A stretch of 64,000 nucleotides of DNA, from the IMG/VR virus record IMGVR_UViG_3300032046_000009; one strand, 5' to 3'. The translations under genes were made by a program, and so were the position numbers. Of this stretch, positions 1 through 21,089 are shown piece by piece. The stretch comes from a virus (taxonomy: Duplodnaviria > Heunggongvirae > Uroviricota > Caudoviricetes). The notes beneath the pieces are model-generated. The model worked only from the letters and a program-made list of their open reading frames with translations, searched no databases and was not told where the DNA came from. The first letter of the stretch is position 1. Each line of letters starts with the position of its first letter.

Positions 1-26
1 TAGAACAGGAACTATGAAGTCAAATA

Positions 27-100
27 GGTAGTATATAAGGGTTTCGGTATAGGGTAGTATATAAACGTTTCGGTATGGCGACCTATATAAAGGTTGTGGT
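27..100 (-). promoter_or_regulatory. three tandem BRE/TATA-like promoter repeats (GTAGTATATAAGGGTTTCGGTAT-like), minus-oriented, driving transcription leftwards out of the window
   Basis: three consecutive approx 23-bp units each containing TATATAA plus GTTTCGG. Confidence 0.35.
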
Positions 101-351
101 CAACCGAAAGTTGAACTTCTGGGGGTAACTGTCTGGGGTGTAACGCACATAGGTATATATTAAGTTAAAATTTGTTTTTCCGCTAAGTTTGCAAGTCAAA
201 AAAAGAGGGAGTTTTATCGGTTCTGTTCGAGCAGTTCAAAAAATCGCTTATTAAACAGTTTGCCGAGATTTCCTTTTAATTTCGGTTGTGTCCGAATTCG
301 TCTTTTTTGTTCCATGATTATCACCAAAAAAACAAAAAGGGGGTAGGGGGG

Positions 352-618
352 TTAATAGCCGTATTTGTTGTTTAATTCGGTTCTGAATTGCTCTTTTTCT
401 GTTTCGGTCAAAGCGTCCGTCTTTTCTAGCAGTTTATGTATGACGGTTTCGAAGTCAAATTTCTCCCATGTTCTGTTTACGTAGCATACTTTAGCCTTTT
501 CGTATTCATTGCCATTTTTGAACAGCCTTGCATCATGTCTAAAACCGCTTCTTGTGCTCACAAATTCACAGAGTATTTCTGTGGTTTCATTCACTTTAAA
601 GATTCTTGCCATTTTCAC
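352..618 (-). CDS. hypothetical small protein (88 aa), probable ATG start at 612
   Basis: track ORF; promoter box TTTATAAGG about 30 nt upstream on minus strand (636-660). Confidence 0.5.
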   Translation of the reverse strand: MKMARIFKVNETTEILCEFVSTRSGFRHDARLFKNGNEYEKAKVCYVNRTWEKFDFETVIHKLLEKTDALTETEKEQFRTELNNKYGY

Positions 619-658
619 ACGTCCTTAATACCTATATGTCAGCGTCCCTTATAAACCT

Positions 659-949
659 TTAGGTGTTCGTTAATCCATAGCGATATTTGGCGTTAATGGT
701 TTGAATCACCTTAATAGCTGAGGCTTCAGGTTGAATAACCTGAACTTTACGGTATGCTAAAGCTATAAAGGTCTGACATTCACAGCATAAAACTTCGCAT
801 ACTTCTAAGTTGCTGTCAGGAACCGCTTCCCATGTGGTTTTTAGTTGTGCCTTTTTGTGCTCGCATGGGTTCTTATCTATGTCACGGTATCCGTCCATAA
901 CTTTTAGATAAGCGAAATATTCTTGTTGTTCTAGTTCGTCCACGTTCAC
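659..949 (-). CDS. hypothetical Cys-rich small protein (96 aa)
   Basis: track ORF; CEVLCCEC motif; AAGGACGTG leader; TATA at 980-1000. Confidence 0.5.
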   Translation of the reverse strand: MNVDELEQQEYFAYLKVMDGYRDIDKNPCEHKKAQLKTTWEAVPDSNLEVCEVLCCECQTFIALAYRKVQVIQPEASAIKVIQTINAKYRYGLTNT

Positions 950-1033
950 ACGTCCTTAACTATAGTAATAGCATCGCCTCTTATAAAGGTTTGCCTAAAA
1001 TCGGAAAGTTTATATACTAGAAAAAAGGGTTGT

Positions 1034-1321
1034 TTAGAGTTGCTGTTCTTCAATGGCTTTTTCTCTGAGTCTAGCGATGAGTCTAAGATGTAGCTGTTCG
1101 ATTTGTTCAGGGTAGAGGTAAACAAAAGACTCTTCAATATCGGATTCGCTGAAAGCTATTGCCCCGTTGTCGTATTCGATAAGTTCAACTATGCTTGTGT
1201 TTGCCCCACAGCATCGATGACGCTTATTTACTAACTTAGTTCGACATTTTACATTATCTTTCACTTTTCCACGTCCTTGTAATATAGTATAGCACCGACC
1301 TATATAAACGTTGCTACTCAA
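1034..1321 (-). CDS. hypothetical protein; true start probably GTG near 1265 (about 77 aa)
   Basis: track ORF; AAGGACGTG leader and TATA at 1298-1312 lie inside the annotated 5 prime end; oligo-A (minus oligo-T) terminator at 1021-1030. Confidence 0.4.
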   Translation of the reverse strand: MSSNVYIGRCYTILQGRGKVKDNVKCRTKLVNKRHRCCGANTSIVELIEYDNGAIAFSESDIEESFVYLYPEQIEQLHLRLIARLREKAIEEQQL

Positions 1322-1497
1322 AATTGAGTTCTGATGTCGGCGAATCTCGGTTGTCTCAGCCTAAACGCTCTTGTGAATGTAAAACCCTGTCTCGTGAGTT
1401 CAGCCCTCATATTTTCAACATTATGACCGCACAGTAAAAGCGTAGCTGTCCCGTGTGCCTCTGTTCGTGTTCCCGTAACGTAAAATAGCTGTGCCAT
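1318..1497 (-). CDS. hypothetical small protein (about 59 aa, MAQLFYVTGTRTEAHG...)
   Basis: hand-translated minus ORF with promoter box at 1532-1560. Confidence 0.3.
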   Translation of the reverse strand: MAQLFYVTGTRTEAHGTATLLLCGHNVENMRAELTRQGFTFTRAFRLRQPRFADIRTQF

Positions 1498-1678
1498 ATT
1501 TTCACCAATAGCATATAGGCATCGTAGCTTATAAACCTTTACCTAAAAACCGAAGGTTTATAAAGGACGACCACAACAAGCGCAAAACGGTTTTGTGTGA
1601 ATCAAAGTTTTACCGTAACCTATTGATTCTTCAACATATCGCCATATAACCTTATTTTTCTCCATTTTGTCACCGTCC

Positions 1679-1694
1679 TTAATCAGTTGATTAA
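1679..1694. promoter_or_regulatory. palindromic site TTAATCAGTTGATTAA
   Basis: TTAATCA-NN-TGATTAA family. Confidence 0.6.
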
Positions 1695-1699
1695 TTGGT

Positions 1700-2250
1700 G
1701 AGGCTTACGGATTCGCACCGTCAAACCCGAACCTACGCGAAGTTTGCACCTTCGCACGATTTGAGGCTTCGGTTTATAAGTCCTCGCCTCGCCTCTTCGG
1801 TTGTGCACCGAGTTCGCTACCGAGTAGAGCAAGTCCTCAATAGTATAATAGTACCGTCCTTTATAAAGGTTTCTGTACTAAAGTGTACGCAAAGGTTTAT
1901 ATACCCGTGTGCTATAGTAGTATTAGGGACGGTGGCGACACGAATCGGATATTACATGGACACGAATGCCATGAGTTCGGTTGCACCACGAGTTGAACTT
2001 TTGGTGTTCCGAAAAAATAATAGAAAAAAGGTGTCGGGAGTCCCGTTTAGTGTTTTGCACTTTTTTGGGTTATCCGTCTTTACGCTCTACCGTTCATCGA
2101 CTTACACTCCTATCGAACGTTTCGAACCGTTCTACCGTTCATCGGTAAGCACTCCTATCGAGCGTGTGTCAGAAGGCTAATTGTCCCTTTGTTAAGGGCT
2201 AATTGTCCCTCGTCCTTGTGAGGCTTCACGAGTTCGCCGTCTTGGGTCGC
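1700..2250 (-). ncRNA. candidate structured non-coding RNA or regulatory repeat region (GC-rich, ORF-less, promoter at 2278-2300)
   Basis: GC-rich island in an AT-rich context; minus-oriented TATA box upstream; tandem 48-bp repeat x2 and 14-bp repeat x2 inside; only a spurious plus ORF. Confidence 0.25.
2085..2211. repeat. tandem direct repeats: CTACCGTTCATCG..CTCCTATCGA(A/G)CGT x2 (about 48 bp period) and GGCTAATTGTCCCT x2
   Basis: read directly in the sequence. Confidence 0.7.
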
Positions 2251-2352
2251 CCGCGCCTCAATAATATACTATGTCAGCGTGGTATATAAACCTTTCTCAA
2301 TTTGTGATTATAGAAAGTTGAACTATTGTCCCTTGCTTATAAAGGTTTCGAC

Positions 2353-2368
2353 TTAATCAGTTGATTAA
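2353..2368. promoter_or_regulatory. palindromic site TTAATCAGTTGATTAA between TATA and ATG
   Basis: TTAATCA-NN-TGATTAA family. Confidence 0.6.
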
Positions 2369-2624
2369 AAAATGCCAAATTCGCCGTTCCGCTTCGCCGT
2401 ACCGTTCCATCAATACCTACGATGTTTCCGAATTTCGTGATGAAAAGTGGGCAACTGTGATTGAAAAGCATGGGAAAAGACCATACCTACACGTCTGTTC
2501 ACGATTCATCACAATGGGAGCTATGGGAAAAAAGCATGGTATTGTGGTGAATAGTGAGCAACTGTGTATTGTGTGGCTAAACGAAAAATTCTCTAAGTTT
2601 TCAGTTAATAGAAAGTTGTACTAA

Positions 2625-2640
2625 AAAAAGAAGGGAAAGT
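2625..2640 (-). terminator. oligo-T terminator (TCCCTTCTTTTTTT on minus strand)
   Basis: A7 run on plus strand immediately 3 prime of the minus gene end; same AAAAAAAGAGGGA-like element recurs at 195-210, 1021-1030, 3540-3555, 6975-6985. Confidence 0.45.
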
Positions 2641-2663
2641 TGCACCGTCTATATCACGGTGGT

Positions 2664-2897
2664 TTAACTCCACAGGCGCACCACAAGTCTGTTTACCGTT
2701 GCAAACTCTGGGTTGACCACGTTAGTTATCCCTGCAAGTTTAACTATTTCGCCGATTATGGTTATTCTTGCAGTTGTTCCGCAGTTGATACATTCGCTTG
2801 TACGCTGTGGTAGTCTCGCAGTTGCACTTTTTATAGCCTTCACGGATTTAACTATCGTGTGGTGTCTGCATTTGGGACAATTTCCGAAATATTCCAT
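2664..2897 (-). CDS. zinc-ribbon small protein (77 aa; CPKC...CINC)
   Basis: track ORF; two CxxC pairs; followed by minus-strand oligo-T at 2625-2640. Confidence 0.55.
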   Translation of the reverse strand: MEYFGNCPKCRHHTIVKSVKAIKSATARLPQRTSECINCGTTARITIIGEIVKLAGITNVVNPEFATVNRLVVRLWS

Positions 2898-3490
2898 TAT
2901 TCATTCACCTCTTTATTAGTTGTATAGTAGTCTAGTGAGTTAGGGCTGACGGTTGCACTTTTGATTATCTTTATTATTCGTTTCGCTCTTATATAATCTA
3001 TGTGTCCGTGTTTGCCCTTATATACTACAGGAACCGTTAGACTTCGAATCCCGACCCGTTTTAAGAGCCTTCTACGCAATGCGTCACGTCTTACGACTAA
3101 AAGGTAATTCTTGTGCCAATTTGGGCTTATTTCTATGTCAATTTGGGTCTTAGGGTCAAAGAAGTCTAATTTGAAAATGTGCCAGCGGTTGCACCTATCC
3201 TTAACTTTTATGCGTACCTCATGGTTCAACTCTAGGTTAAAGTCGTCCACTAATCTCTTGAATTGTGCCTCTAAATGGGTAAATACGTTAGGATTACGCT
3301 TAGAATTCAATTTCCAGCAATTTCCAAAGCCCTTTCCTTTAGCCTTGCCTTTTTCACAGTCCTTATAGTGTTTAAAGAATTCTAAGAACTGCACTTGTGA
3401 TTCTAGGCTTAAATCGAAGAGTCCGATAACGTCCGTGTCCTCTAGTTGTGTTAAGTGTTCGCATATTACGCTAAGTTGTAAGTGTTCCAC
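2897..3490 (-). CDS. hypothetical protein (197 aa), GTG start, lysine-rich
   Basis: track ORF; overlaps downstream gene at 2897; promoter box 3515-3545. Confidence 0.55.
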   Translation of the reverse strand: MEHLQLSVICEHLTQLEDTDVIGLFDLSLESQVQFLEFFKHYKDCEKGKAKGKGFGNCWKLNSKRNPNVFTHLEAQFKRLVDDFNLELNHEVRIKVKDRCNRWHIFKLDFFDPKTQIDIEISPNWHKNYLLVVRRDALRRRLLKRVGIRSLTVPVVYKGKHGHIDYIRAKRIIKIIKSATVSPNSLDYYTTNKEVNE

Positions 3491-3564
3491 GTTCGCACGT
3501 CCTTCAATACTATAATGTCAGCGTCCTATATAAACCTTCGCATTAAAAAAAGAAGGGAATTGTT

Positions 3565-3858
3565 TCAAACGAAATACGGATGTCCGTTTATGCTTATCAG
3601 TTGACTCTTCTGTGAGCATATCCGCTTTAAATCTTCGCCGTATTTAAGTATTTGTTCAGGAGAAACCACGGTTGAACTTTCGATTATCCAAATTTGCACG
3701 TTGTCCAGATACAATTTTCCGTTGTCCAGCCATAGACCCTCACAGTTGTTAATGATAGTTAAACCGCCGAATGCACCGCACAGTTGAACTTTCACAGCAT
3801 CCAATTTCGTTTTATCTGGGTTCTCAGTTGTGACCACGTAGATTTTTATTTCTACCAT
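3565..3858 (-). CDS. hypothetical protein (97 aa)
   Basis: track ORF; TATA at 3888-3900. Confidence 0.5.
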   Translation of the reverse strand: MVEIKIYVVTTENPDKTKLDAVKVQLCGAFGGLTIINNCEGLWLDNGKLYLDNVQIWIIESSTVVSPEQILKYGEDLKRICSQKSQLISINGHPYFV

Positions 3859-3894
3859 CTTTCCACGTCCTTAATAGTGTAATAGCACCGTGAC

Positions 3895-4416
3895 TTATAA
3901 ACCTTCGCTTTTTTTGGTAAACTTAGCGAATTTTGAGATAACGCTCTGCTGTAGCTCTAGCTGTGCATCTATTGTACATGTCCCGATAAACTCACAATAG
4001 ACCCACTCGTTTATCGTTTCTTGTATCAATTCCAACACTAGAGGGTCTGGATTATTATCAAGCAATTCATTTATTGCTGTTTTCCAAGCATAAACCTCTT
4101 GTTTCAGCAAAAATTCTCTATCGTATGACAGGCAAAATTCGGCAATATCCATATTAGGGTAAAGCGTTTGATATACGATAATATGTCCTATTTCGTGATT
4201 CAGAATTAACGCTTTTACCTTATCAGGTATTGAACCATAACCATTAATATAATTAGTTGAATAGTTCTTAGTTCCAATAATGATTTTTCGCTCAGGGTAA
4301 AATGAAGCCTTCGAATGATTCCAGCTTAGGATATAACTGTACTCGATACGGAAACCTAGTTTTTGCGCTAAGTTTTCAAGTCGTGTCAATTCATCCTTAT
4401 CGTTCAAATGTTCCAC
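3895..4416 (-). CDS. putative small zinc metallopeptidase-like protein (HEIGH = HExxH motif)
   Basis: track ORF 173 aa; LNHEIGHIIVY zincin-type motif; promoter elements 4440-4495. Confidence 0.45.
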   Translation of the reverse strand: MEHLNDKDELTRLENLAQKLGFRIEYSYILSWNHSKASFYPERKIIIGTKNYSTNYINGYGSIPDKVKALILNHEIGHIIVYQTLYPNMDIAEFCLSYDREFLLKQEVYAWKTAINELLDNNPDPLVLELIQETINEWVYCEFIGTCTIDAQLELQQSVISKFAKFTKKSEGL

Positions 4417-4499
4417 GTCCTTAAAGATGATATAACACCGTCCTTAATAAAGAGTTCTATGGTTTTTCTTGTAATAGGTATATAAACCTTTCGCTCTGT

Positions 4500-4760
4500 T
4501 CGAACCTGTCCGTGCCAGCGATACCCAAAAGGACTGTATATCAAACCCGTTTGTCAAAAACAAGCCCTGAGCATGTCGTTCGGACGAATACGCTCAATTC
4601 CCTTTATATTTGCTCAACGATATTGAGCGAGCAAGCCCCGTTTAGTCGAATAAGGCTAAATCGTGGAGTTCGGGTCTATGTTAGGCATGGTCAATTCAAC
4701 ATCAGTCCTATGGTAACTATGGTTCGATGACGTTCGTTTAGCTAAATCAGCCTTAGAGCT
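4500..4760 (-). ncRNA. candidate small structured RNA region (GC-rich, ORF-less)
   Basis: GC-rich; flanked by several TATA-like elements (4478-4495, 4858-4885); only a weak plus ORF. Confidence 0.2.
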
Positions 4761-5439
4761 AGTCATCGCGGCGAGTTCGAATCTATAAGATGCCTCTATT
4801 AACTGATTCCGCCTCAAATCGGGGTCCGATGATGTGTAGCTAAAGTGTATCTGTGTTCTACAACTAAAAGCAAACGTTTATATAGGACGCTGAGAACGTA
4901 GTATTTGGCGGCGGCGGTTCGCGTTAAGCGTATATTACATAGTTACGCATCTTATGAATTCAGTTGCACTAAAAGTTCAACTTTGGGTTGCCTCTCTCCC
5001 GTGTCTTGCGTCAAGCTACTAGCAGATACGCACAGCCCTATATAAACCTTCCTATTAAAGTGTAGAACAGAGATACAATAGGAACCTTTATATACCTCGC
5101 TATCCTCTTCTCAGCGCGCCTCAAATCGTGCTTCGTTTGGCTAATCCGCCTCGATTCAGCCCTAATTGAACATGGTTGTTCTAGGCAAACATTTATAAGC
5201 AACCATGCCTTTTATATGGTATGTATCGAAAGACGTGATTAAACCCAGAGTTGTACTTTATGGTTCGAATTTTGCTAAGTTTGCACATATATAAGCAACC
5301 GATAGGTTTAAATAGCTACTATATAAGGCTATCGGCGATACGCTTAAATAGGGGGTATATAAACGTTTTGGTCTAGCACAACTTCTAGTGTAACAAAAAG
5401 TGCAACTTTTGGGGTAACGCCTCGGCTAACAGGAAATTG

Positions 5440-5680
5440 TCCGTAGAATGCAACTGAGAATGTCACATAAGCGCACATAGGCGTTTTTTTGATTCCAATT
5501 ATTTTCTGGTCAGAGCTTCCACGCCGTCCGTTTTACCTGTCGGTTTGCCCTGCTTAATCACCTGATTAAAAGTTCTCCACAGTTCCGCGAGCCTTTCGGA
5601 TAATAAAGTCACCGTTTGCCAAAACGTCTTTTTTTCAGGGCTATTTTGGCATTCAGGGGAGCTAGAGGGGGGGGACTTGT
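5440..5680. repeat. composite intergenic module copy 1 (GTCACATAAGCGCACATAGGCGTTTTTTT ... palindrome ... AACGTCTTTTTTTCAGGG..GCTAGAGGGGGGGGACT)
   Basis: shares about 45-nt 5 prime block, internal TTAATCA palindrome and 3 prime G-rich block with copies at 19745-20035 and 40840-41070. Confidence 0.6.
5554..5569. promoter_or_regulatory. palindromic site TTAATCACCTGATTAA
   Basis: 16-bp perfect palindrome family TTAATCA-NN-TGATTAA. Confidence 0.6.
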
Positions 5681-5699
5681 TTATAATGGGGTATTAATC

Positions 5700-6260
5700 A
5701 GTTGTTTAAAATAGAGCTATAGCACTATGTCAGTCAGCACGTTGTCGTATGCCAACTATTCACTCCATAGACCCTTTACGTATGACAACCCTTTTCTTTA
5801 CGTATGTAAAGGTCATCAGTATCTTTTATCGAGCATTTCTTTTATCCATGTACTCCACTTTTTAGCTATTCTGGGGGTCTAGTACCACTTTTAGGGGTCT
5901 TTTGAGGGGTATAGGGAGTCATCTAGGGGGTTAGTGATTAGAGGTCGTTAGGGGTTCGTGGTTAAGGGGGTCGGACGGGGGTTCTCTGGGGTTCGGGAAT
6001 TTACTTAACAATTTCTGTTAATGGTTAGGGGGGTCGGGGTAAAGGGTGCATGTGGCATGAGAGAGCCTGTTACGAGCTACGATTCGTTAATCAGTTGATT
6101 AAAAGTTCGGGTTTGCCTGTGTCGCCTTGCTACGGGCTTGGCAGAACTTGGGTCAGTCTGGGTTGACTAGGTGAAATCAAAAAGTGTTAAGGATTCTTAA
6201 CAAAAATTGTCTAAGTTTGCAGAGGGTAAAAGAGGGGGTTTCGAGAGAGGTTAGAAGGAA
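5700..6260. repeat. G-tract-rich non-coding block (irregularly spaced TAGGGG(G)T / GGGGTC units, more than 15 G4-5 runs)
   Basis: read directly; no ORF; contains palindrome at 6087-6102. Confidence 0.6.
6087..6102. promoter_or_regulatory. palindromic site TTAATCAGTTGATTAA
   Basis: TTAATCA-NN-TGATTAA family. Confidence 0.6.
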
Positions 6261-6389
6261 TGAGTAGAACGGGCGAAGGGAAAGCGCGAGAAAGGACGGT
6301 GAAAAAATGGAACAATATCCCTTCGCCCTTGATAGAGTAGTATGTCAAACGGGTATATAAAGGTTGTGGTAGAAAGACCATGCTCGAAT

Positions 6390-6617
6390 CTAGTGTTCGA
6401 CTTTATAGATTCCATAGAGCAGTACCAATATTCCAACAGGGACACCCAAAAATAGAAGCGGTGAAAATAGCGCACCAAAAGTAGCAGAAAAAGCGAAAAT
6501 GAAAATTCCACCCAGAATTGCCCCTATACTTTGGGTTAGAGGGTCACGTATGACTTCGATGGTTCTTGTGTAGAGCCACTTAAAGAATCCTATTTTTTGC
6601 TTGACCATCTTGTTCAC
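6390..6617 (-). CDS. small membrane protein (75 aa, 2 predicted TM helices)
   Basis: track ORF; hydrophobic stretches; promoter box 6641-6675. Confidence 0.5.
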   Translation of the reverse strand: MNKMVKQKIGFFKWLYTRTIEVIRDPLTQSIGAILGGIFIFAFSATFGALFSPLLFLGVPVGILVLLYGIYKVEH

Positions 6618-6671
6618 TTGATAATAACAACAACACCGAGCTATATAAAGGTTTCCTAAGAACGTCCATGC

Positions 6672-6809
6672 TCAAAATTCAATGTGAACTTTGAGTATTC
6701 CAGAAAGTATTAGAGCTATTACAACTACGAAAAAGGCTATCGGGGCAAATGCCATGATTATGCCAGCGTTCTCTTTTACTTTCTTAATCACGGTTTTTAG
6801 TGTTATCAT
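6672..6809 (-). CDS. small membrane protein (about 45 aa, 1 TM) with approx 105-nt structured 5 prime leader
   Basis: hand-translated; leader 6810-6915 has hairpins GGAAAC-AA-GGTTTCC and CGTCC...GGACG; promoter box 6941-6980. Confidence 0.3.
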   Translation of the reverse strand: MITLKTVIKKVKENAGIIMAFAPIAFFVVVIALILSGILKVHIEF

Positions 6810-7165
6810 TTTAGACCACTTAGATTAGCGCGGAACACGGACGATTCTCCAATAAGCGTCCATCACTCGTCAGCTAAGGACGTAGTTTGGAAACCTTGTT
6901 TCCGTGCTCATACGAGTAATACAATAATCAAACAACTATATAAAGATTGTGGTAGAAACATCATACTCAAAAAAAGAGAGTTTTAGAGAAATTGTTTATT
7001 CTCTGTCCGTATCTGAATGTCAATGTCCGTAACGAGTATTTCAATGCTGTCTATGTTTTGTTGTTTCTTGCGTCTTTTAGTCTTTACGGCATCTTTTAAG
7101 AGCTTTATGACGTATCGAGCTTGTTTCGGGGTTATTTTGACCTTAAACTCTTTGTCTATCATGGC

Positions 7166-9745: not shown

Positions 9746-9961
9746 TTATGTAAATTGAACCTGTTCTATGTCTTTCTTTTTGATGATTTTTTCGAAACAG
9801 TCAGGGCAGAGCCACGTTAAAGTTATGCCAATTTTTCCTCTTTCTTGTACTTTTCCTTTCAAACGATAAACTTTTAGGCTGTTTTTCCAACAATTAGTGC
9901 AACTATAATAGCTTATTGATGAAATACAAATATTATAATCGGTTTTTGTTAGTTGAATCAT
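9746..9961 (-). CDS. VxFT-tail family, Cys-rich; terminal member of array 1 (tail EQVQFT, TAA stop)
   Basis: track ORF; CxxC pairs; no downstream overlap and a TAA stop. Confidence 0.6.
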   Translation of the reverse strand: MIQLTKTDYNICISSISYYSCTNCWKNSLKVYRLKGKVQERGKIGITLTWLCPDCFEKIIKKKDIEQVQFT

Positions 9962-10200
9962 GTAAACTCTACCTTCTCTTTGCTGTTGAGAAAATCCTTA
10001 AACCACTTTTCCTTTTCCCATTCTTCAATGGGCGTATGAAAACCTAAAAGCGTCCCATGTTCTTTGTCAAACCTTTTTGAAAAATATCTCTTCCATTCTT
10101 CGTTACAACTTTCGCAGAGAACAGCCAATAATAGTTTAATTGGAAATTGACCGCTAACTATTCTTTTGCATTTTCTACAACGTCCTTTAAATTTTGTCAT
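9958..10200 (-). CDS. VxFT-tail family, Cys-rich (KEKVEFT)
   Basis: track ORF; ATGA junction at both ends. Confidence 0.6.
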   Translation of the reverse strand: MTKFKGRCRKCKRIVSGQFPIKLLLAVLCESCNEEWKRYFSKRFDKEHGTLLGFHTPIEEWEKEKWFKDFLNSKEKVEFT

Positions 10201-10426
10201 GTAAATTCAACCGTTTCCCGTTCACTCTTCCAATACTCACATGAACAACCTAAACGATAAGAATGTCTAGGACTACCTAACGGAGTTTTCACGTCCCTTA
10301 AAAATCCTGTAGCTTTCCCGTTCGGTTCAGTTAAGTTAGGTTGTGAGCGCATCTCTGTGCATTTATAATAAATCTTGTCGAGATTCCTCTTGTTCGAACA
10401 GTTAAAGCAACCTTTCTCTTTCAAGT
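10197..10426 (-). CDS. VxFT-tail family (RETVEFT); TTG start overlapping upstream ACTTGA (track start 10493 is an over-extension)
   Basis: CFNC...YKC...GCSC motifs; TTGA junction. Confidence 0.55.
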
Positions 10427-10660
10427 GAAATTGACCTTCTCTTTTGTTGTTACTTTGCGTTTTAATAGCCACTTTTTGAAAAAAGACTCCCAAGTATTAT
10501 CTCTTCTATCGTGAAAGAAGTCATGTCGTTCTTGTGATTTTTCCCACAAAATACCATGTGAGTCGCAAAGATAAAGTTTTTCCTCAGTCTGTATATCGTG
10601 ATAATTTGCATAACCTTTTTTACCGCAAATACAACACTTTTTACGGTTTGAATTTATCAT
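10421..10660 (-). CDS. VxFT-tail family, Cys-rich (KEKVNFT)
   Basis: track ORF. Confidence 0.6.
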   Translation of the reverse strand: MINSNRKKCCICGKKGYANYHDIQTEEKLYLCDSHGILWEKSQERHDFFHDRRDNTWESFFKKWLLKRKVTTKEKVNFT

Positions 10661-10836
10661 GTGAACTCGACCTGTTCTTTTTCGTTAGCCTTTTTATAAC
10701 AAACATTTAGGGTATTGCCTTTGAATCCTCTTTCTATTGAACATGGTTTGCAATAACACACGTTCGCGCTCAATTTATGCAAACTATCACATATATTATT
10801 GCAAGTGAATCTCTTTCCACAAACTTTACAAATCAT
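10657..10836 (-). CDS. VxFT-tail family (58 aa, EQVEFT), CxxCGKxFxC...CYCxxC subfamily
   Basis: hand-translated; below the 60-aa track cutoff; ATGA junctions. Confidence 0.45.
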   Translation of the reverse strand: MICKVCGKRFTCNNICDSLHKLSANVCYCKPCSIERGFKGNTLNVCYKKANEKEQVEFT

Positions 10837-11051
10837 GTGAACGTCACCGTTTCCCGTCCCTTTAGACGGTTAATAATCTCTCGCGCCTTCATTTTGTCTA
10901 AGAGTTCCATTATCTCTGGGTTATCGGAAAGTAACTTGTCTATGCGTTCGCCTTGCTCTCTGAGCCTGTCTAGCTCGTACATCATACAATTAAAGCATAA
11001 TTTCTCGTTAATTCGTTGTTTGAACTCGTTTCCACATTTAGAACAAATCAT
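10833..11051 (-). CDS. VxFT-tail family (RETVTFT); likely start ATG 11051
   Basis: track ORF 10833..11087, start revised to the ATGA junction. Confidence 0.55.
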   Translation of the reverse strand: MICSKCGNEFKQRINEKLCFNCMMYELDRLREQGERIDKLLSDNPEIMELLDKMKAREIINRLKGRETVTFT

Positions 11052-11194
11052 GTGAAACAGACCTTTTCTCTTCCTTTGTTGTTGCATTGCTTACACATTC
11101 TTGAACCTATCTTCTTTGCATCCGCATAGTTTTTAACGGGAATATTGAGAGGTCTGCCACATTTTGAACACGGTATAACGAGAACGCCCGTCAT
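11047..11194 (-). CDS. VxFT-tail family (48 aa, REKVCFT)
   Basis: hand-translated MTGVLVIPCSKCGRPLN... Confidence 0.45.
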
Positions 11195-11406
11195 GTGAAT
11201 AACACCTTCTCTTTTGGCTCTGGGGTTTTATATAGTTTGGTTCCTCGCGCTTTCATTTGAGAATTAAGTTCTTGACAACATTTATCAATTTCATCATAAT
11301 CAATACTGTTTTCGTGACATTTATCGTGCATCTTGCATTCCGTACACAAATCCTCATAATCGTACTCGATATAACCGTTATCGTCTATTGTTGTCATGTG
11401 AAACAT
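11191..11406 (-). CDS. VxFT-tail family (KEKVLFT), Cys/His-rich
   Basis: track ORF. Confidence 0.6.
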   Translation of the reverse strand: MFHMTTIDDNGYIEYDYEDLCTECKMHDKCHENSIDYDEIDKCCQELNSQMKARGTKLYKTPEPKEKVLFT

Positions 11407-11588
11407 ACCTTCTCCTTTTGTTGTAATTCGATTAAATCTGTATCAGATACAACATACCTTTCGGTTTTATATCTTATATCAATGGTTCTGTTTGACATAA
11501 TTCTTGTAATTTTAACAAATGAACCTTTGGGGCAATGCCTAAAGCCAGCGTATTTTAGCTTTGCCTTATCGCCAACTTGAAACGTCAC
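11394..11588 (-). CDS. VxFT-tail family (KEKVCFT), GTG start in a GTGA junction
   Basis: track ORF. Confidence 0.55.
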   Translation of the reverse strand: MTFQVGDKAKLKYAGFRHCPKGSFVKITRIMSNRTIDIRYKTERYVVSDTDLIELQQKEKVCFT

Positions 11589-11704
11589 GAGAAAATCACC
11601 CGTTCTTTTCTTCTGTCTAGCCAGCGATTAAACTCTGCCGTATGAATGAAACATCTAAGTTTTCCTGTATCTTTGTCGAACACTATTATAGCACAGTCAG
11701 TCAT
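11585..11704 (-). CDS. VxFT-tail family variant (38 aa, tail ERVIFS with S=TCG)
   Basis: hand-translated; TCGTGA junction giving a GTG start downstream. Confidence 0.4.
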   Translation of the reverse strand: MTDCAIIVFDKDTGKLRCFIHTAEFNRWLDRRKERVIFS

Positions 11705-11994
11705 GTAAACGTCACCTTTTCCCTTTTGTCGTATTCTGTTTTTAAACTGTCCTTTAAAAGCCATCCATTCGGATTTTCTCTCATAAATTGTTCAGCATGA
11801 CTTTTTGCCTCTTCATAAGTGTTAAAGATTCCCTCAGTATCGTATTTTCCTGTTTTATCATCTCTGAGCCAAATCTCTGTGCACTCACATTCATTGGGAG
11901 TATGAGTTTCACAATCTTCATAAACGTCTAAACTAAGAAATTCGGTTCCTATTCTCCACGAATTAGTTCCATCCCAGACCCATTTACCCGTCAT
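11701..11994 (-). CDS. VxFT-tail family (REKVTFT); start ATG 11994
   Basis: track ORF 11701..12042 trimmed to the ATGA junction. Confidence 0.55.
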   Translation of the reverse strand: MTGKWVWDGTNSWRIGTEFLSLDVYEDCETHTPNECECTEIWLRDDKTGKYDTEGIFNTYEEAKSHAEQFMRENPNGWLLKDSLKTEYDKREKVTFT

Positions 11995-12188
11995 GTAAAG
12001 TTCACCTTTTCCTTTGCGTCTGGGTATCTTTGCGCTTTGCATTCTTTATGTTTATAGTTAAGAAAAGGCAATAAGCATAGAGGTTTATAGGGGTTCTTTC
12101 TGTGAACCTTATGAGGACATTCTGCCTCATCAATGCAAATAGGGACATCGTGATTTTTCAGAAGAGCCTTTAAGTTTAAATCCGTCAC
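11991..12188 (-). CDS. VxFT-tail family (KEKVNFT), first gene after a approx 150-nt leader
   Basis: track ORF; leader 12190-12345 contains the palindrome near the TSS. Confidence 0.55.
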   Translation of the reverse strand: MTDLNLKALLKNHDVPICIDEAECPHKVHRKNPYKPLCLLPFLNYKHKECKAQRYPDAKEKVNFT

Positions 12189-12352
12189 GCTTTCAACCCC
12201 TCTCTAAACTTGCCATGTGCGAACGGTTGACCGTGATGTGAGCCTGTCGGCAGACTTGAATAGAAACGTCTAAGTTTTCGGACGTTCAACGGCAGACCCC
12301 CGTGACTTTGCGTTTTGCGAGTTTGCGCTTTATCCTATGAAGTTTTCCCGTA

Positions 12353-12368
12353 TTAATCACCTGATTAA
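12353..12368. promoter_or_regulatory. palindromic site TTAATCACCTGATTAA at the predicted TSS of the 11991..12188 transcript
   Basis: lies about 25 nt downstream of the TATA of promoter box 12372-12415. Confidence 0.55.
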
Positions 12369-12386
12369 CTAGAACAACACCGTGAC

Positions 12387-12635
12387 TTATAAAGGTTGTT
12401 CCAGAAAGACCATTCTCGAAATACTGTTCCGTATCTTACAACTTTCGAGTTTAAGCCCATATTCAGCCTCTAATTGCTTCGCCCTCTTCGCCAGCCCGTC
12501 CTTATAGGATTTAACGCCCAGAATGAGCAGACAATCTTTCATCCATCCCTCATAAACGATTAGTTTGTCCCCCTCAATTCGAACTCCAAATCCAATATGC
12601 CCAAGTTTTCGAGCTACGTTCTTCAAATCAGTCAT
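12387..12635 (-). CDS. hypothetical protein (82 aa), no VxFT tail; 3 prime end overlaps the next promoter box
   Basis: track ORF. Confidence 0.5.
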   Translation of the reverse strand: MTDLKNVARKLGHIGFGVRIEGDKLIVYEGWMKDCLLILGVKSYKDGLAKRAKQLEAEYGLKLESCKIRNSISRMVFLEQPL

Positions 12636-12853
12636 GTAAATTCAACCCTCTCAGGAACCATGAATTTCACCTTTCGAATTATGTCACCGTGAACGAAATA
12701 CTTTGACCATTTTCGTTTTACCACACACACGGTAAAAACAAGTGGGGTTTTTTTTGTAATTGATTCAACTTCTAGTATCGTGCCTACGGGAACGTAAGGA
12801 TTATTTGATTTAAGCAACCGTACAAAATCGCCAGCTTTTATTATTTGATTCAT
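12632..12853 (-). CDS. VxFT-tail family, non-Cys member (PERVEFT)
   Basis: track ORF. Confidence 0.55.
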   Translation of the reverse strand: MNQIIKAGDFVRLLKSNNPYVPVGTILEVESITKKTPLVFTVCVVKRKWSKYFVHGDIIRKVKFMVPERVEFT

Positions 12854-16667: not shown

Positions 16668-16698
16668 CTTTATTACCTTACGAGTATAGATGCCAGCG

Positions 16699-16756
16699 TC
16701 CTATTTAAATGTTTGCTTAGAAAGACCATGTTCATTTTAGTTAATCAACTGATTAA
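16699..16756 (-). promoter_or_regulatory. promoter box (TATTTAAAT TATA, GACCATGTTCA upstream element) plus upstream palindromic site TTAATCAACTGATTAA (16741-16756)
   Basis: near-identical architecture repeated at 18963-19023 for the VWA gene. Confidence 0.6.
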
Positions 16757-19099: not shown

Positions 19100-19200
19100 A
19101 GTTTAACTGTGCCCCGAAGTAGTGTCCCCCAAAGGACTGTGGATAATGCCCGACTCTCAATTTCATCCCCTGAGCGTTCTCTTCGGGGCAAATCGTTCAA
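19100..19200 (-). ncRNA. candidate small structured RNA (terminal 10-bp stem GCCCCGAAG...CTTCGGGGC), minus promoter at 19205-19228
   Basis: inverted repeat at 19111-19120 / 19181-19190; TATATAAAC immediately upstream in minus orientation. Confidence 0.25.
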
Positions 19201-19406
19201 TAATTTCGAACATATATAAACGATATTGAACGAGTGTCCTTCTTTTGTTCGAAGAGGCTCAAATAATGCTTTTCGACCAATGGAAACGATGTTAAAAAGA
19301 CCATCAGTCCTATGGAATCTGGGTTTCGTTCGGGTTCGTTTTGGAAAATCAGTCTTGGAAAACGGCAACGCGCAGACTTCGAATGTAAAGGCTTCGAGTT
19401 TTGAAA

Positions 19407-19488: not shown

Positions 19489-19744
19489 TTAAATGCGCCT
19501 CGCACCGCGTCCCGTTTGGCAAAAGCGACCATTGTGAAAGCTGTGCTGGAAATTGAGCATGGCGTTTTTAGGGAAAGATTTATAAGCTACCGTGTTGTAG
19601 TATTCACAAAGAGGCACAAATATGTTTCCGTTTGATACTCTGGGTTTCATAATAGGTTTAATTGTTCTTGCAAAAGTAGTTAAAACTTTCAGGCGACCCG
19701 TTGGTTGTCCCGACCCGTCAGAACTTGAGGAAGCACTAGAGGAC

Positions 19745-20035
19745 GAAGGCTAGGTCACACTTTCGGTGTAACTTTCCGTCCCCTCGAAAATTAAATTTTT
19801 AGTAGAATCCTGAGTGTCACATAACGCACATAGGCGTTTTTTCTTCCCAATTAGATTTCGGTTTATGGTGAAGCCCTCTGCCAGCCCCCAACGTATTCCC
19901 CAGACTTTTAATCAACTGATTAAAAAAGCACCGACTTCAGGCTTCAGTTCCCATTGGCTTCGCCCTAGCATCCAGAACGTCTTTTTCCCTAGTCTATTTA
20001 CCTGTCAAATGTAGCTAGGGGTAGGGGACTAATCG
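19745..20035. repeat. composite intergenic module copy 2
   Basis: GTCACATAACGCACATAGGCGTTTTTT ... TTAATCAACTGATTAA (19908-19923) ... AACGTCTTTTTCCC..GCTAGGGGTAGGGGACTA. Confidence 0.6.
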
Positions 20036-20154
20036 AACCGAACTTTCTCTTTTTGTTTATACAATAGTTTTAGACATTCGGGACAAAAAAGTGCACGACT
20101 TCCAGCGAAGGGTTTGCAGAACCAAAGTTTTCCACATCTAAAACATTCTATCAT
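20029..20154 (-). CDS. VxFT-tail family (about 41 aa, KEKVRFD, TAG stop), terminal member of array 4
   Basis: hand-translated MIECFRCGKLWFCKPF... Confidence 0.4.
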   Translation of the reverse strand: MIECFRCGKLWFCKPFAGSRALFCPECLKLLYKQKEKVRFD

Positions 20155-20165
20155 TTTCTCTTCTG

Positions 20166-20396
20166 TCAATCGAAACTCACCTTTTCTGGAATCCGAAACA
20201 TAAGTTCAGAAATTCTAATATCGACTTTTCTCTTCTTTATCAGACAAACCATTTGCATTGGAAAATTTCTCTCTTTTTTATGTAGTTCCGCAGACCTAGT
20301 TAATCGGTTGCTCAATGCTTGTAAAGTATGAATTTCACTTTTCAATTCGACAAGTGGTTTCTTTTTCCATTGTGCAAGCGGAGATTTATGGGTCAT
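20166..20396 (-). CDS. VxFT-tail family variant (PEKVSFD)
   Basis: track ORF. Confidence 0.5.
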   Translation of the reverse strand: MTHKSPLAQWKKKPLVELKSEIHTLQALSNRLTRSAELHKKERNFPMQMVCLIKKRKVDIRISELMFRIPEKVSFD

Positions 20397-20608
20397 GTGA
20401 ATGACACCGTTTCTTTAGCTTTACAGAATCGTGAACAAACTTCTTTCAAATCTTTTGGGTATTCCCCAACTTCGGATTTCTCAAACTTTCGCGCACAATC
20501 GGAGCAATAACAACCCCCGTATTGCACTTTGCCATGACTAAGACCTAATCTAGCGCACCCATTATTGCACACGAAATGTTTTCCGCATTTTCCACAAATT
20601 TTGTTCAT
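20393..20608 (-). CDS. VxFT-tail family (KETVSFT), CxxCGKxFxC subfamily
   Basis: track ORF. Confidence 0.6.
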   Translation of the reverse strand: MNKICGKCGKHFVCNNGCARLGLSHGKVQYGGCYCSDCARKFEKSEVGEYPKDLKEVCSRFCKAKETVSFT

Positions 20609-20883: not shown

Positions 20884-21089
20884 GTGAACTCTACCTTCTC
20901 TTTGAGTTTGGCTAAATATTCTGGAATATGGTCTGAAATTATTATGTCATTCGGATATTTTTCATGACTCCACTTGACAAAAACCATCCAACATTTTATA
21001 CAAAGAAACGCCCATTTTCCGTTATTCTTTTCTCCGCACACGGGACAAAAATCTGGAAGTTCTTCTTTATCAACGAGTTTGTTTGTCAA
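20880..21089 (-). CDS. VxFT-tail family (KEKVEFT); TTG start at the TTGA junction
   Basis: track ORF 20880..21131 trimmed. Confidence 0.55.
   Translation of the reverse strand: MTNKLVDKEELPDFCPVCGEKNNGKWAFLCIKCWMVFVKWSHEKYPNDIIISDHIPEYLAKLKEKVEFT

What the first reader, a model, noticed from the sequence alone, without database searches (positions are those of the whole stretch)
5700..6260. 600-bp ORF-free block packed with G4-G8 tracts (TAGGGG(G)T / GGGGTC units)
More than 15 G-runs at irregular 10-40 bp spacing lie on the plus strand in an otherwise AT-rich genome. This is reminiscent of G-string elements of archaeal origin-recognition boxes or of G-quadruplex-forming regions. An origin of replication, a partition locus or a structured RNA are all possible. 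The block also contains a TTAATCA palindrome.
Basis: seen in the sequence. Interest (0 to 1): 0.55.

Follow-up and report, generated by a model that had tools for sequence, protein, structure and literature searches.

The report
G-tract block between converging operons
A dense, one-stranded cluster of G-runs in an uncultivated archaeal virus-like genome is real and is kept in related strains. It most likely marks where opposing transcription units end, not a replication origin, but the mechanism is untested.

Summary
There are 10 runs of four or more G in 5873-6039 and 14 in 5656-6238, with no C-run. G reaches 47% per 100 nt, and G4Hunter is 8.6 sd above the window mean. The TTAATCA palindrome is genome-wide (25 copies), so it is not specific to the block.

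The window is part of a >137 kb archaeal virus or extrachromosomal element. It has TATA-box promoter modules, an archaeal-type LonB, and nearly all genes on the minus strand.

The block lies in a 2 kb gene-poor hub, between a plus-sense T5 tract and two minus-sense T5 tracts. Four related lineages keep a G-tract array here on the same strand, between conserved anchors. Number, spacing and sequence of the runs differ, and three lineages carry a gene cassette inside the array.

The short motif GGGGTAGGGG recurs at three operon ends, 0-27 nt after the last stop codon. All 16 copies seen have the C-rich version on the gene-sense strand.

Best reading (about 0.35): an orientation-locked operon-end or insulator element, enlarged here by duplication or fusion.

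An ORB-type origin fails its defining tests. An R-loop/G4 origin, a protein-binding array and a recombination scar remain possible.

The parts
5866..5995 (+). Main G-tract array. It has 10 G-runs of 3-5 G, mostly of the form TA-GGGG(G)-T(C/T). On the minus (gene-sense) strand these read as C-runs followed by TAA or TAG.
   Evidence: Orthologous arrays lie between the same anchors in L009, L003, L020 and L021.
5855..5863 (+). Left anchor CCACTTTTT. It is conserved in all five lineages, and its T5 (5859-5863) looks like a plus-sense oligo-T terminator placed directly before the array. A second CCACTTTT at 5885 marks an internal duplication.
5977..5990 (+). Right anchor of the left array, GGGGGTTCTCTGGG. 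It is conserved as GGGGTTCTCTG(A/G)G in all five lineages.
5996..6025 (.). G-poor spacer holding CTTAACAATTTCTGTTAA, which is inverted with 6178-6210. At this position L003, L020 and L021 carry a 134-140 aa Cys/His-rich gene cassette with its own promoter.
   Evidence: (I13, I22).
6026..6046 (+). Second G cluster, TAGGGGGGTCGGGGTAAAGGG. In relatives it lies upstream of the inserted cassette.
5656..5676 (+). Conserved G motif GGGGAGCTAGAGGGGGGGGAC. It has paralogues at 339-351, 20018-20027 and 41043-41061.
   Evidence: It is identical in the window, L009 and L003.
5623..5635 (+). AACGTC followed by T7. This is the partner of the G motif, 20-33 nt upstream of it in all four copies, and it looks like a plus-sense oligo-T terminator.
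5469..5490 (+). Hairpin AAGCGC-ACATAG-GCGTTT followed by a T-run: a terminator-like end of a short plus-sense unit. A paralogue lies at 19826-19842.
5680..5687 (+). TATA-like box TTTATAAT, conserved in the four lineages whose sequence covers it. It is only a weak match to the genome's promoter core.
5694..5709 (.). One copy of the genome-wide palindrome, here with one mismatch, 6 nt after the TATA-like box.
5554..5569 (.). One copy of the genome-wide palindrome TTAATCACCTGATTAA, inside a 60-nt stretch identical between the window and L003.
6087..6102 (.). One copy of the genome-wide palindrome TTAATCAGTTGATTAA, between the array and the minus-sense terminators.
5741..5789 (.). Inverted repeat GTTGTCGTATG ... 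CGTATGACAAC in the pyrimidine-rich stretch before the array. It is kept in five lineages with a few double changes.
6179..6206 (-). Two minus-sense T5 tracts (6179-6183 and 6202-6206) directly after the stop codon of the small ORF. They look like oligo-T terminators that face the array.
6211..6315 (-). Probable 34-aa ORF with a TTG start, behind the promoter module. Its indels against L009 and L003 are 15 and 12 nt, so the frame and the stop codon are kept.
6340..6392 (-). Canonical promoter module (upstream element, BRE and TATA) that points leftwards, towards the block.

Best explanation
The block is an enlarged copy of an orientation-locked boundary element that this genome places at the 3' ends of its main, leftward (minus-strand) transcription units, where these meet short rightward units.

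On the gene-sense strand the element reads as C-runs followed by TA(A/G). The short form is TAG-T-CCCC-TA-CCCC-TAG, placed directly after the last stop codon of an operon. On the plus strand the same element appears as G-runs.

In the window two such clusters (5866-5995 and 6026-6046) sit side by side, and the first contains an internal duplication. Together they form an unusually large tract in the roughly 315 nt between a plus-sense T5 (5859-5863) and two minus-sense T5 tracts (6179-6206).

Inferred mechanism: the element stops read-through from either side. For leftward transcripts it gives a long untranslated tail that is 40% C, 11% G and weakly structured. Such a tail could act as a loading or cleavage platform for a termination or 3'-end factor, working like a bacterial Rho rut site. 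Archaeal aCPSF1/FttA is reported to cleave exposed nascent RNA at CA/CC. The G-tracts also lie on the template strand for these leftward transcripts. For rightward transcripts the G-clusters lie on the non-template strand just past the oligo-T, which favours an R-loop or G4 arrest.

Shown: the position, the orientation lock, the conservation pattern and the base composition. Inferred: any effect on transcription, and which of the two molecular routes operates.
For: (1) Position. GGGGTAGGGG occurs exactly three times in the window, always on the plus strand. Each copy lies 0, 1 or 1-27 nt after the stop codon of the last minus-strand gene of an operon: 339-351 after the TAA at 352-354, 20018-20027 after the TAG at 20029-20031, and 41043-41061.

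(2) Orientation. All 13 further exact copies in related loci have the C-rich version on the gene-sense strand.

(3) Opposing units. Each of the three window copies faces an opposing plus-sense unit. Two of those units have predicted promoters (19548-19600 and about 40680) and plus-sense T-runs 24-33 nt before the G motif.

(4) Setting of the big array. It lies between converging T5 tracts. In L003, L020 and L021 its left part starts about 25 nt after the stop codon of an inserted minus-strand gene, and its right part follows the unit of the small ORF.

(5) Conservation. Five lineages, with flanking-protein identity of 64-100%, keep the array on the same strand between the anchors CCACTTTT and GGGGTTCTCTG. 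Array length is 62-136 nt, and the number, spacing and sequence of the runs differ. This is what is expected of an element that depends on composition and not of iterons.

(6) Composition. The minus-sense RNA would be C 39.8%, G 11.0%, with 29.3 CC+CA dinucleotides per 100 nt against 8.6 genome-wide. It has little predicted structure: -60.9 kcal/mol for 356 nt, z -0.83.

(7) Plus-sense direction. The tract is the best window of 200 nt on either strand for RNA:DNA hybrid against duplex stability (-35.3 kcal/mol, z -3.5), and it holds 4 of the 9 G4+N1-10G4+ clusters on the plus strand.

(8) Literature. Rut sites are 70-80 nt, C-rich and G-poor, and aCPSF1/FttA cleaves exposed nascent RNA at CA/CC after translation ends (PMC8501993).
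Against: - No transcript data exist, so every promoter, terminator and 3' end used here is predicted.
- Known archaeal termination depends on uridine-rich tracts, and aCPSF1 acts at or just downstream of these (PMC7515710). No C-tract signal has been described in archaea.
- In the window both converging units already have T5 tracts before the array, so few polymerases may reach it.
- Three other plus-sense units (promoters near 1000, 1548 and 1887) end without any G motif, and other operon ends use plain T-runs, so the element is not general.
- T-runs are not followed by G-runs more often than expected across the window: 13 observed against 17 expected.
- In another hub (L009 and L019) G-runs sit directly after TATA boxes and not after stop codons.
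- The copy at 5656-5676 is not next to a recognisable stop codon.
Confidence: 0.35

Rival explanations
1. R-loop or G-quadruplex element that primes or licenses DNA replication. A rightward transcript from the TATA-like box at 5680 or from upstream promoters would enter the G-clusters on the non-template strand and form a stable RNA:DNA hybrid. That hybrid would be used as a primer or as an opening site, as in ColE1, mitochondrial CSB II or herpesvirus oriLyt.
For: - The tract is the top window for hybrid against duplex stability for plus-sense RNA, and G is at least 40% over 100 nt almost only here.
- Canonical G4 motifs are present, for example GGGGGTCGGACGGGGGTTCTCTGGGGTTCGGG at 5966-5997.
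- A conserved TATA-like box plus palindrome lies 180 nt upstream.
- The hub holds AT-rich inverted TATA repeats at 5285-5366 (I7).
- Recombination breakpoints and cassette insertions cluster at the array, as is seen at R-loop or G4 sites.
- RNA:DNA hybrids are required at EBV oriLyt (cited in PMC7156643).
Against: - The TATA-like box scores below all 22 training promoters: 2.7 against a minimum of 13.8.
- A conserved T4-5 tract separates the leader from the array.
- No replication initiator, primase or polymerase gene was recognised within 16 kb.
- GC skew shows no switch at the block, and third-codon-position skew is noisy.
- Related G motifs occur at four or more other sites in about 70 kb.
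- The array shrinks to 62 nt in L021.
Confidence: 0.15
2. No selected function. The tract would be a low-complexity recombination scar in a plastic intergenic region, kept G-rich by slippage, unequal crossing-over and gene conversion between short G-tract units.
For: - The window and L009 are identical over 1-5866, and all their differences start exactly at the array.
- The window's array contains a duplication of the CCACTTTT segment.
- Units such as TTCTCTGGGG..TAGAGGTCGTTA sit at different places in different strains.
- Cassettes are gained or lost on both sides.
- Contigs from three assemblies break at 5247/5387.
Against: - The strand and the G-run character are kept in five lineages down to 64% flanking-protein identity, and conserved anchors flank the array.
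- Several G-runs align at orthologous positions while the spacers differ.
- The short motif is exact and orientation-locked in 16 of 16 copies.
- Neutral decay would not keep 0 C-runs against 14 G-runs.
Confidence: 0.2
3. Array of binding sites for a virus- or host-encoded DNA-binding protein, which would make a centromere-like, packaging or nucleoprotein site. The protein would recognise GGGGT(C/T) on one face of the helix.
For: - 11 of 13 runs are followed by T, and the unit TAGGGG(G)T recurs.
- Mean spacing in 5873-5995 is about 11 bp.
- A ParB_N protein is encoded in the window.
- The array lies in a non-coding hub together with other repeated motifs.
Against: - Spacing ranges from 7 to 33 nt with no constant phase.
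- Tandem Repeats Finder finds only a 2-copy 12-nt repeat.
- Units are not homogenised within a genome, and their number varies two-fold between strains.
- No partition ATPase or adaptor is adjacent; the ParB_N gene is 57 kb away and lacks a DNA-binding domain hit.
- AGGGGKTY is barely enriched in the window: 9 against 4.4 expected.
Confidence: 0.12
4. G-rich plus-sense non-coding RNA. Its repeated UAGGGGGU units would mimic Shine-Dalgarno sequences or act as a sponge for an RNA-binding protein, in the manner of CsrB/RsmZ.
For: - The motifs are irregularly spaced, variable in number and poorly conserved apart from the motif itself, as in sponge RNAs.
- GGGGGU can pair with the anti-SD CCUCC through one G-U pair (inference).
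- In L021 a TTAGGGGTT unit lies 9 nt before the ATG of a small plus-sense ORF.
Against: - There is no clear promoter or terminator for such an RNA. A T5 tract precedes the array, and there is no plus-sense T-run before 6594.
- There is no folding signal and no Rfam match.
- The genome's own SD is AAGGTG, not a G-run.
Confidence: 0.08
5. Classical archaeal Orc1/Cdc6-dependent origin, in which the G-runs are the G-strings of origin recognition boxes.
For: - The genome is of archaeal type.
- G-strings do end ORBs in haloarchaea and are essential there (PMC4010727).
- Sequences such as GTTGAACTTCTGGGGGT (108-126) and GTGCAACTTTTGGGGT (5400-5416) loosely recall an ORB half plus a G-string; this resemblance is from memory and was not tested.
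Against: - There is no dyad element beside the G-runs of the block.
- All runs are on one strand, and there are no inverted ORB pairs around an AT-rich element.
- No Orc1/Cdc6 gene was recognised in the window or in 16 kb of flanks.
- There is no skew switch.
Confidence: 0.03

Closest known systems
Bacterial Rho utilisation (rut) sites
   Same: Both are 60-140 nt untranslated tracts that are C-rich, G-poor and weakly structured. Both sit after the last stop codon of a transcription unit and are defined by composition and not by sequence (PMC8501993).
   Different: The host is archaeal by every indication, and archaea lack Rho. The known archaeal factor aCPSF1/FttA is tied to U-rich signals. 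The C-runs here are long homopolymer runs followed by TAA or TAG, not spaced YC dimers. No functional test has been done.
R-loop-forming G-cluster zones (Ig switch regions, mitochondrial CSB II, ColE1 and herpesvirus oriLyt)
   Same: Both have clusters of G3-8 runs on one strand, G at 40% or more over 100 nt, and G4-capable motifs, and both are recombination-prone.
   Different: No strong promoter is shown to read into the tract, and an oligo-T precedes it. There is no link to replication genes or to skew. The published survey of viral R-loop-forming sequences found none in the archaeal order Ligamenvirales (PMC7156643).
Archaeal origin recognition boxes with G-strings
   Same: Both are runs of G in a non-coding region of an archaeal-type replicon (PMC4010727).
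   Different: The block has no dyad core, no inverted arrangement, no unwinding element bracketed by boxes and no adjacent orc1/cdc6.
Plasmid centromere iteron arrays (for example parC of R1)
   Same: Both have about a dozen short units, with a mean spacing near one helical turn, beside promoters.
   Different: The units here are irregular in spacing and sequence, vary in number between strains, and have no adjacent par genes.
CsrB/RsmZ-type sponge RNAs
   Same: Both have many copies of a short purine motif at irregular spacing, and the number of motifs evolves quickly.
   Different: No transcription unit, hairpin-loop presentation or partner protein is evident, and no covariance-model match was found.

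Membership tests
Archaeal ORB/Orc1-Cdc6 origin | Repeated boxes with a dyad-symmetric core next to the G-string | tested here: not met
   The repeat search over 5000-7000 finds no dyad adjacent to the G-runs. The only strong palindrome is the genome-wide TTAATCANNTGATTAA.
Archaeal ORB/Orc1-Cdc6 origin | Boxes in inverted orientation flanking an AT-rich unwinding element | tested here: not met
   All 14 G4+ runs are on the plus strand, with 0 C4+ runs in 5300-6400.
Archaeal ORB/Orc1-Cdc6 origin | Adjacent orc1/cdc6 initiator gene | tested here: not met
   No Cdc6/ORC family hit was found among the window proteins scanned or in the precomputed Pfam lists for genes in the flanks. The rest of the >137 kb element could not be read.
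Archaeal ORB/Orc1-Cdc6 origin | Strand-compositional switch at the site | tested here: inconclusive
   GC skew changes near 9.5 kb and not at the block. The change is largely explained by coding density, and third-position skew is noisy.
Potential G-quadruplex sequence | Four or more G3+ tracts with short loops; G4Hunter >= 1.5 | tested here: met
   5966-5997 has loops of 6, 6 and 3 nt. G4Hunter reaches 2.08, and there are seven regions >= 1.5 in 5647-6055. This is in silico only; folding was not tested.
R-loop-forming sequence (QmRLFS-type: G-cluster initiation zone, linker, G-rich elongation zone) | A G4+N1-10G4+ or three-G3+ initiation cluster followed by 100 nt or more with about 40% G or more. 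These thresholds are from my own knowledge of the tool; the general model is in PMC7156643. | tested here: met
   Clusters lie at 5894-5909, 5966-5981 and 6028-6039. 100-nt windows with G >= 40% start from 5869, and the only other place reaching 40% is near 41025.
R-loop-forming sequence | Transcription entering the tract with the G-rich strand as non-template | not testable with these tools
   Only a weak TATA-like box lies upstream, and a T5 tract precedes the array. There are no transcript data.
Rho-type rut-like terminator zone | An untranslated, C-rich, G-poor, unstructured tract of about 70-80 nt downstream of the last stop codon | tested here: met
   C is 39.8% and G 11.0% over 181 nt. 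The MFE z-score is -0.83. The tract lies after stop codons in the window and in relatives.
Rho-type rut-like terminator zone | A factor that uses it (Rho) and termination downstream | not testable with these tools
   Archaea lack Rho (established knowledge). The archaeal factor aCPSF1 is described with U-rich signals.
Iteron or centromere repeat array | Several near-identical units at a fixed period | tested here: not met
   Tandem Repeats Finder finds only 2 copies of a 12-nt unit at 5888-5910. Start-to-start spacings range from 7 to 33 nt.
Known RNA family (Rfam 15) | A covariance-model match | tested here: not met
   No match at gathering score in the window, and none at E <= 5 in 4300-6700.

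The most novel reading that the evidence does not exclude
Runs of C followed by TA(A/G), placed directly after the last stop codon, would be a previously undescribed composition-based signal for transcription termination or 3'-end formation. It would be used by a large archaeal virus in a domain where only U-tract signals are known. The 180-nt block would then be a double-strength version that insulates converging units.
Probability: 0.2. Interest if true: 0.65.

Novelty: new variant of a known kind. Interest (0 to 1): 0.45.

Why it matters
Archaeal transcription termination is understood almost only through oligo-U tracts and aCPSF1/FttA. A second class of signal, orientation-locked and based on C-tracts, would change how operon ends are predicted. 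It would also give a simple template for in vitro tests. A virus is the kind of genome that must keep opposing units from colliding, so it is a plausible place for such a signal.

If the tract instead primes replication through an R-loop or G4, it would be the first such origin proposed for an archaeal virus.

In either case the locus shows that this uncultivated element of more than 137 kb has a very regular regulatory grammar: a promoter module, a palindrome, stereotyped gene junctions and the end motif. That grammar can be mined from sequence alone.

Tried and rejected
- DNA similarity. There is no match to 50,697 phage records or 72,556 plasmids. The exact array and the 575-aa protein are absent from IMG/VR, and the composite motif is absent from IMG/VR. 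The metagenome scan with the composite motif gave only two loci, both orthologues of other copies.
- RNA. There is no Rfam match and no tRNA. Folding 5705-6060 on either strand does not differ from shuffles. The consensus fold of the leader gives only one inverted repeat with weak covariation.
- Coding. The 51-aa plus-strand ORF 5727-5882 is broken in L003. A minus frame through the C motif (SPxPSSP..PEKKTF, read by eye) has no start codon and no called ORF, so it was rejected.
- Degraded gene. Local alignment of the array to the cassette genes of relatives matches only their array parts, not the genes.
- KOPS-like polar motif. GGGNAGGG occurs 3 times against 2.0 expected, so it is not enriched as a class.
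- General rule that a T-run is followed by G-runs. This is not enriched: 13 against 17 expected.
- GC skew as an origin marker. It is uninformative.
- Host identification through LonB in GTDB genomes. No relative was found. NCBIfam was used instead.
- Bacterial host with Rho. This was considered because one protein (51557-52234) has only bacteriophage relatives. It was set aside because LonB matches the LonB equivalog TIGR00764 (which I take from memory to be the archaeal type) at E 1e-73 against 1e-22 for the bacterial Lon and spore-LonB models. The KaiC-family hits are to archaeal models, and the promoters are TATA-type.
- The cassette genes have no Pfam match. Their resemblance to HNH nucleases rests on inspection only.
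Full report
**1. The observation**

Reading 5000-7000 and counting homopolymer runs confirms a one-stranded G-tract cluster.
- Fourteen runs of four or more G lie between 5656 and 6238. Ten of them are packed into 5873-6039.
- There are 22 runs of three or more G in 5640-6260, no C4+ run, and only two C3 runs.
- The window as a whole has 82 G4+ and 93 C4+ runs. No other 500-nt bin holds more than four G4+ runs.
- G4Hunter averaged over 200 nt peaks at 1.11 at 5864-6063, against -0.09 +/- 0.14 for the window. Seven of the fourteen regions with a 25-nt score of 1.5 or more lie in 5647-6055.
- G reaches 47% in 5892-5991, against a mean of 16.6% and sd of 4.7.
- The dense core is about 180 nt (5866-6046), with a separate G motif at 5656-5676. 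The stretch between them, 5700-5860, is pyrimidine-rich.
It occurs 25 times in the window against 0.09 expected, so it belongs to the genome's general grammar.

**2. What genome this is**

- The window matches nothing in the phage or plasmid collections, in IMG/VR or in Rfam, and it has no tRNA genes.
- Identical or near-identical proteins place it on metagenome contigs of 86,048, 137,451 and 151,756 bp from sediment-type assemblies. The element therefore exceeds 137 kb.
- Nearly all genes are short and lie on the minus strand.
- About 30 genes are preceded by one 40-nt module. In gene sense it reads TTGAGCATGG-N5-TTCTAGG-N4-AAGGTTTATATAGGACG, an archaeal-looking BRE/TATA box with an upstream element.
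- Just right of the window lie a LonB and a glycosylation cluster. The LonB matches the LonB equivalog TIGR00764 at E 1e-73, against 1e-22 for the bacterial Lon and spore-LonB models. The KaiC-domain ATPase matches archaeal KaiC and RadB models. I take the host to be an archaeon. This is an inference, because the attempt to find cellular relatives by name failed.

**3. Anatomy of the locus**

From the 173-aa gene (3895-4416) to about 6210 there is no convincing conserved gene (gene calls). The region is a hub of small elements:
- a 260-nt conserved segment (4524-4785) with a paralogue at 19127-19387;
- several plus-sense promoter-like boxes at 4868, 5078, 5183 and 5334, and a cluster of inverted TATA repeats;
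- a hairpin plus T7 terminator-like site at 5469-5490;
- a palindrome at 5554;
- AACGTC-T7 at 5623-5635;
- the G motif GGGGAGCTAGAGGGGGGGGAC at 5656-5676;
- a TATA-like box TTTATAAT at 5680-5687, followed by a palindrome at 5694;
- a pyrimidine-rich 150 nt that holds an inverted repeat (5741-5751 and 5779-5789);
- the anchor CCACTTTTT, whose T5 is 5859-5863;
- the array.

To the right of the array lie:
- a conserved 40 nt and a palindrome at 6087;
- two A5 runs at 6179-6183 and 6202-6206, which read as T5 on the minus strand;
- the stop codon of a probable 34-aa minus-strand ORF (6211-6315), whose indels against two relatives are 15 and 12 nt;
- a canonical leftward promoter module at 6340-6392.

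The array therefore lies between oligo-T tracts that face each other.

**4. Relatives**

Five lineages carry the locus.
- L009 is 98% identical overall.
- L003, L005 and L006 are 80-95% identical in DNA.
- L020, L021 and L023 were found through the flanking 173-aa protein, at 77%, 68% and 64% identity.
- The segment 5476-5692 is almost identical between the window and L003, although neighbouring DNA is only 65-84% identical.

The array itself is always on the same strand and is bounded by CCACTTTT and GGGGTTCTCTG(A/G)G.
- Its length is 136 nt in the window, 92 in L009, 83 in L003, 82 in L020 and 62 in L021, and the runs differ in number and spacing.
- Some runs align at orthologous positions.
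- The window's copy contains a duplication of the CCACTTTT segment.
- The window and L009 are identical from 1 to 5866, and all their differences begin at the array. It is therefore also a recombination junction.
- In L003, L020 and L021 a 134-140 aa Cys/His-rich gene with its own promoter sits between the left array and the right G cluster. It has no Pfam match.
- In those genomes each of the two G clusters follows the 3' end of a separate leftward unit. In the window, which lacks the cassette, the two clusters lie side by side. Together with the duplication, this explains why the block is so large here.

**5. The same motif elsewhere**

- A self-comparison shows that 5405-5677 has paralogues at 19759-20030 and, in part, at 41008-41064. 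The shared cores are CACATAGGCG plus a T-run, and AACGTC plus a T-run followed 24-33 nt later by (G)AGCTAG-GGGTAGGGGAC. A fourth copy is at 300-351.
- Against a 78%-identical relative (L015), this 65-nt core has four changes while its flanks are scrambled.
- GGGGTAGGGG occurs exactly three times in the window, always on the plus strand. All 13 exact copies in the fetched loci have the same orientation relative to the genes.
- In gene sense the motif reads TAA-CCCCCCTACCCCC, directly after the stop of gene 352-618. It reads TAG-T-CCCCTACCCC directly after the stop of the 46-aa gene 20029-20169. It reads TAG-T-CCCCTACCCC-TAGCT-CCCC 1-27 nt after the last ORFs at 41063-41277.
- Each of these three ends faces a short plus-sense unit. 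The large array consists of the same kind of unit: in gene sense CCCCCCTAA, CCCCCTTAA, CCCCTAA, CCCCCTAG and CCCCTAA.

**6.

- ORB origin. There is no dyad core, no inverted arrangement and no orc1/cdc6 among the proteins scanned or the flanking gene calls.
- GC skew. It is flat left of about 9.5 kb and about -0.15 to the right, with genes on the minus strand on both sides. The change is not at the block, it tracks coding density, and third-position skew is noisy.
- Structured RNA. There is no family match and no excess folding energy.
- Partition site. There is no regular unit. The one ParB_N protein is 57 kb away.
- G-quadruplex and R-loop potential. This is confirmed in silico: canonical G4 motifs are present, and the tract has the best hybrid-versus-duplex energy of any 200-nt window on either strand.

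**7. Interpretation**

The most economical account of position, orientation lock, sequence tolerance and composition is a boundary element at the ends of leftward units that meet rightward ones.
- For leftward transcripts it supplies an untranslated tail with 40% C, 11% G, many CC/CA dinucleotides and little structure. That is the signature of a Rho rut site in bacteria. Archaeal aCPSF1/FttA is reported to cut exposed nascent RNA at CA/CC once translation has stopped (PMC8501993).
- For rightward transcripts the G clusters lie just past an oligo-T on the non-template strand, where a hybrid or a G4 would hinder further elongation.
- I hold this at about 0.35, for the following reasons. Nothing here shows transcription. 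Known archaeal termination uses U-tracts (PMC7515710). T5 tracts already precede the array on both sides. Several other unit ends lack the motif. In another hub, G-runs follow TATA boxes and not stop codons.
- The rivals I cannot exclude are an R-loop/G4 replication-priming site (0.15), a recombination scar without function (0.2), a protein-binding array (0.12) and a G-rich RNA (0.08).

**8. Novelty and verdict**

No described family matches. The nearest analogues, rut sites and R-loop G-cluster zones, share the working principle but not membership. I rate it a new variant of a known kind, of moderate interest. It is a real, conserved and oddly large G/C-tract element with a testable role in an unusual archaeal virus-like genome. 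It is not the replication origin that first comes to mind.

Noticed in passing
whole window, minus strand (for example 9746-12853, 20393-26274, 37685-45690): 61 minus-strand ORFs end in the same pentapeptide (E/R)(K/R)VxFT. The cause is that gene junctions are stereotyped: ...GAGAAGGTNnnnTTCACATGA, an SD-like GGTG followed by an overlapping stop and start (ATGA or TTGA). TTYACWTGA occurs 72 times on the minus strand and 3 times on the plus strand.
   Followed up: partly
about 30 sites, for example 16688-16740, 24562-24614, 60817-60869; plus-sense copies at 5161-5213 and 19548-19600: A 40-53 nt promoter module. In gene sense it reads TTGAGCATGG-N5-TTCTAGG-N4-AAGGTTTATATAGGACG. The strongly conserved element upstream of the TATA box suggests a dedicated transcription factor.
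   Followed up: partly
25 sites, for example 1679, 2353, 9332, 14357, 16741, 19008, 56711: The palindrome TTAATCANNTGATTAA occurs 25 times against 0.09 expected. It often lies directly upstream of the promoter module, and sometimes overlaps a stop codon or a predicted transcription start. It is likely an operator for a dimeric regulator.
   Followed up: partly
4524-4785 and 19127-19387; also L003:7285-7590, L020:2235-2545 and L015:985-1285: Paralogous non-coding segment of about 260 nt. It has an invariant long-range pairing AGGACTG...CAGTCCT and 11 predicted pairs with changes on both sides. It also has a conserved GAGTTCGAATCT. It is a candidate structured RNA with no Rfam match.
   Followed up: partly
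19623-19745 (+); 5385-5490, about 108-160 and 40715-40870 (+): Short plus-sense units that run antisense to the main gene direction. One encodes a 43-aa membrane-like peptide with synonymous-type changes against L015. Most end in a conserved ...CACATAGGCG motif followed by a T-run.
   Followed up: partly
27-100, 5285-5366; L009:13280-13480; L019:8930-9200: Clusters of tandem and inverted TATA-box-like repeats, such as TAGTATATAAGGGTTGCGATAGGCTTATATAGTAG. They are often followed by G-runs and by GTGCAAC or GTTGAAC motifs. Their function is unknown.
   Followed up: no
5247 and 5387: Contigs from two independent assemblies (an ENA k141 contig and a Logan contig) end exactly at 5247. A third contig from the same ENA sample starts at 5387, which gives a 140-nt overlap. 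This points to a branch in the assembly graph, and so to strain variation, inside the TATA-repeat cluster.
   Followed up: partly
6211-6315 (-) and 6260-6340 (+): Two overlapping small ORFs lie in a segment that is about 100% conserved. The minus-strand 34-aa ORF sits behind promoter 6340-6392 and keeps its frame through 12- and 15-nt indels. The plus-strand ORF encodes a 26-aa basic peptide that is also kept in frame in L021. An 11-bp perfect hairpin (6272-6282 with 6319-6329) spans both.
   Followed up: partly
6345-6971; L003:5728-5767: Three tandem units of promoter plus small membrane-protein gene lie at 288-295 nt spacing. Two of the units are absent in L003. This indicates cassette-like gain and loss by recombination between promoter modules.
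   Followed up: partly
28435-29115 (-): A 226-aa protein built of repeats of the type (V/I)(Y/E)VDR(I/V)VEK. The underlying DNA repeat has a 30-nt period, with 4.3 copies at 28769-28896. The protein has N- and C-terminal hydrophobic segments.
   Followed up: no
L016:1-9724 (window coordinates about 64000-73700); 63682-63963 (-): Right of the window the element encodes an archaeal-type LonB protease and a sugar-modification cluster: PIG-L, SDR, a hexapeptide transferase, an Anp1-like glycosyltransferase, an Asn-synthase-like protein, a UDP-GlcNAc 2-epimerase and an NDP-sugar dehydrogenase. A 93-aa protein with only a ParB_N domain lies inside the window.
   Followed up: partly
about -6400 to 9500 against 9500 to 73500 (extended with L009 and L016): GC skew is close to 0 left of 9.5 kb and about -0.15 to the right, although genes are on the minus strand on both sides. 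The left part has a much lower coding density.
   Followed up: partly
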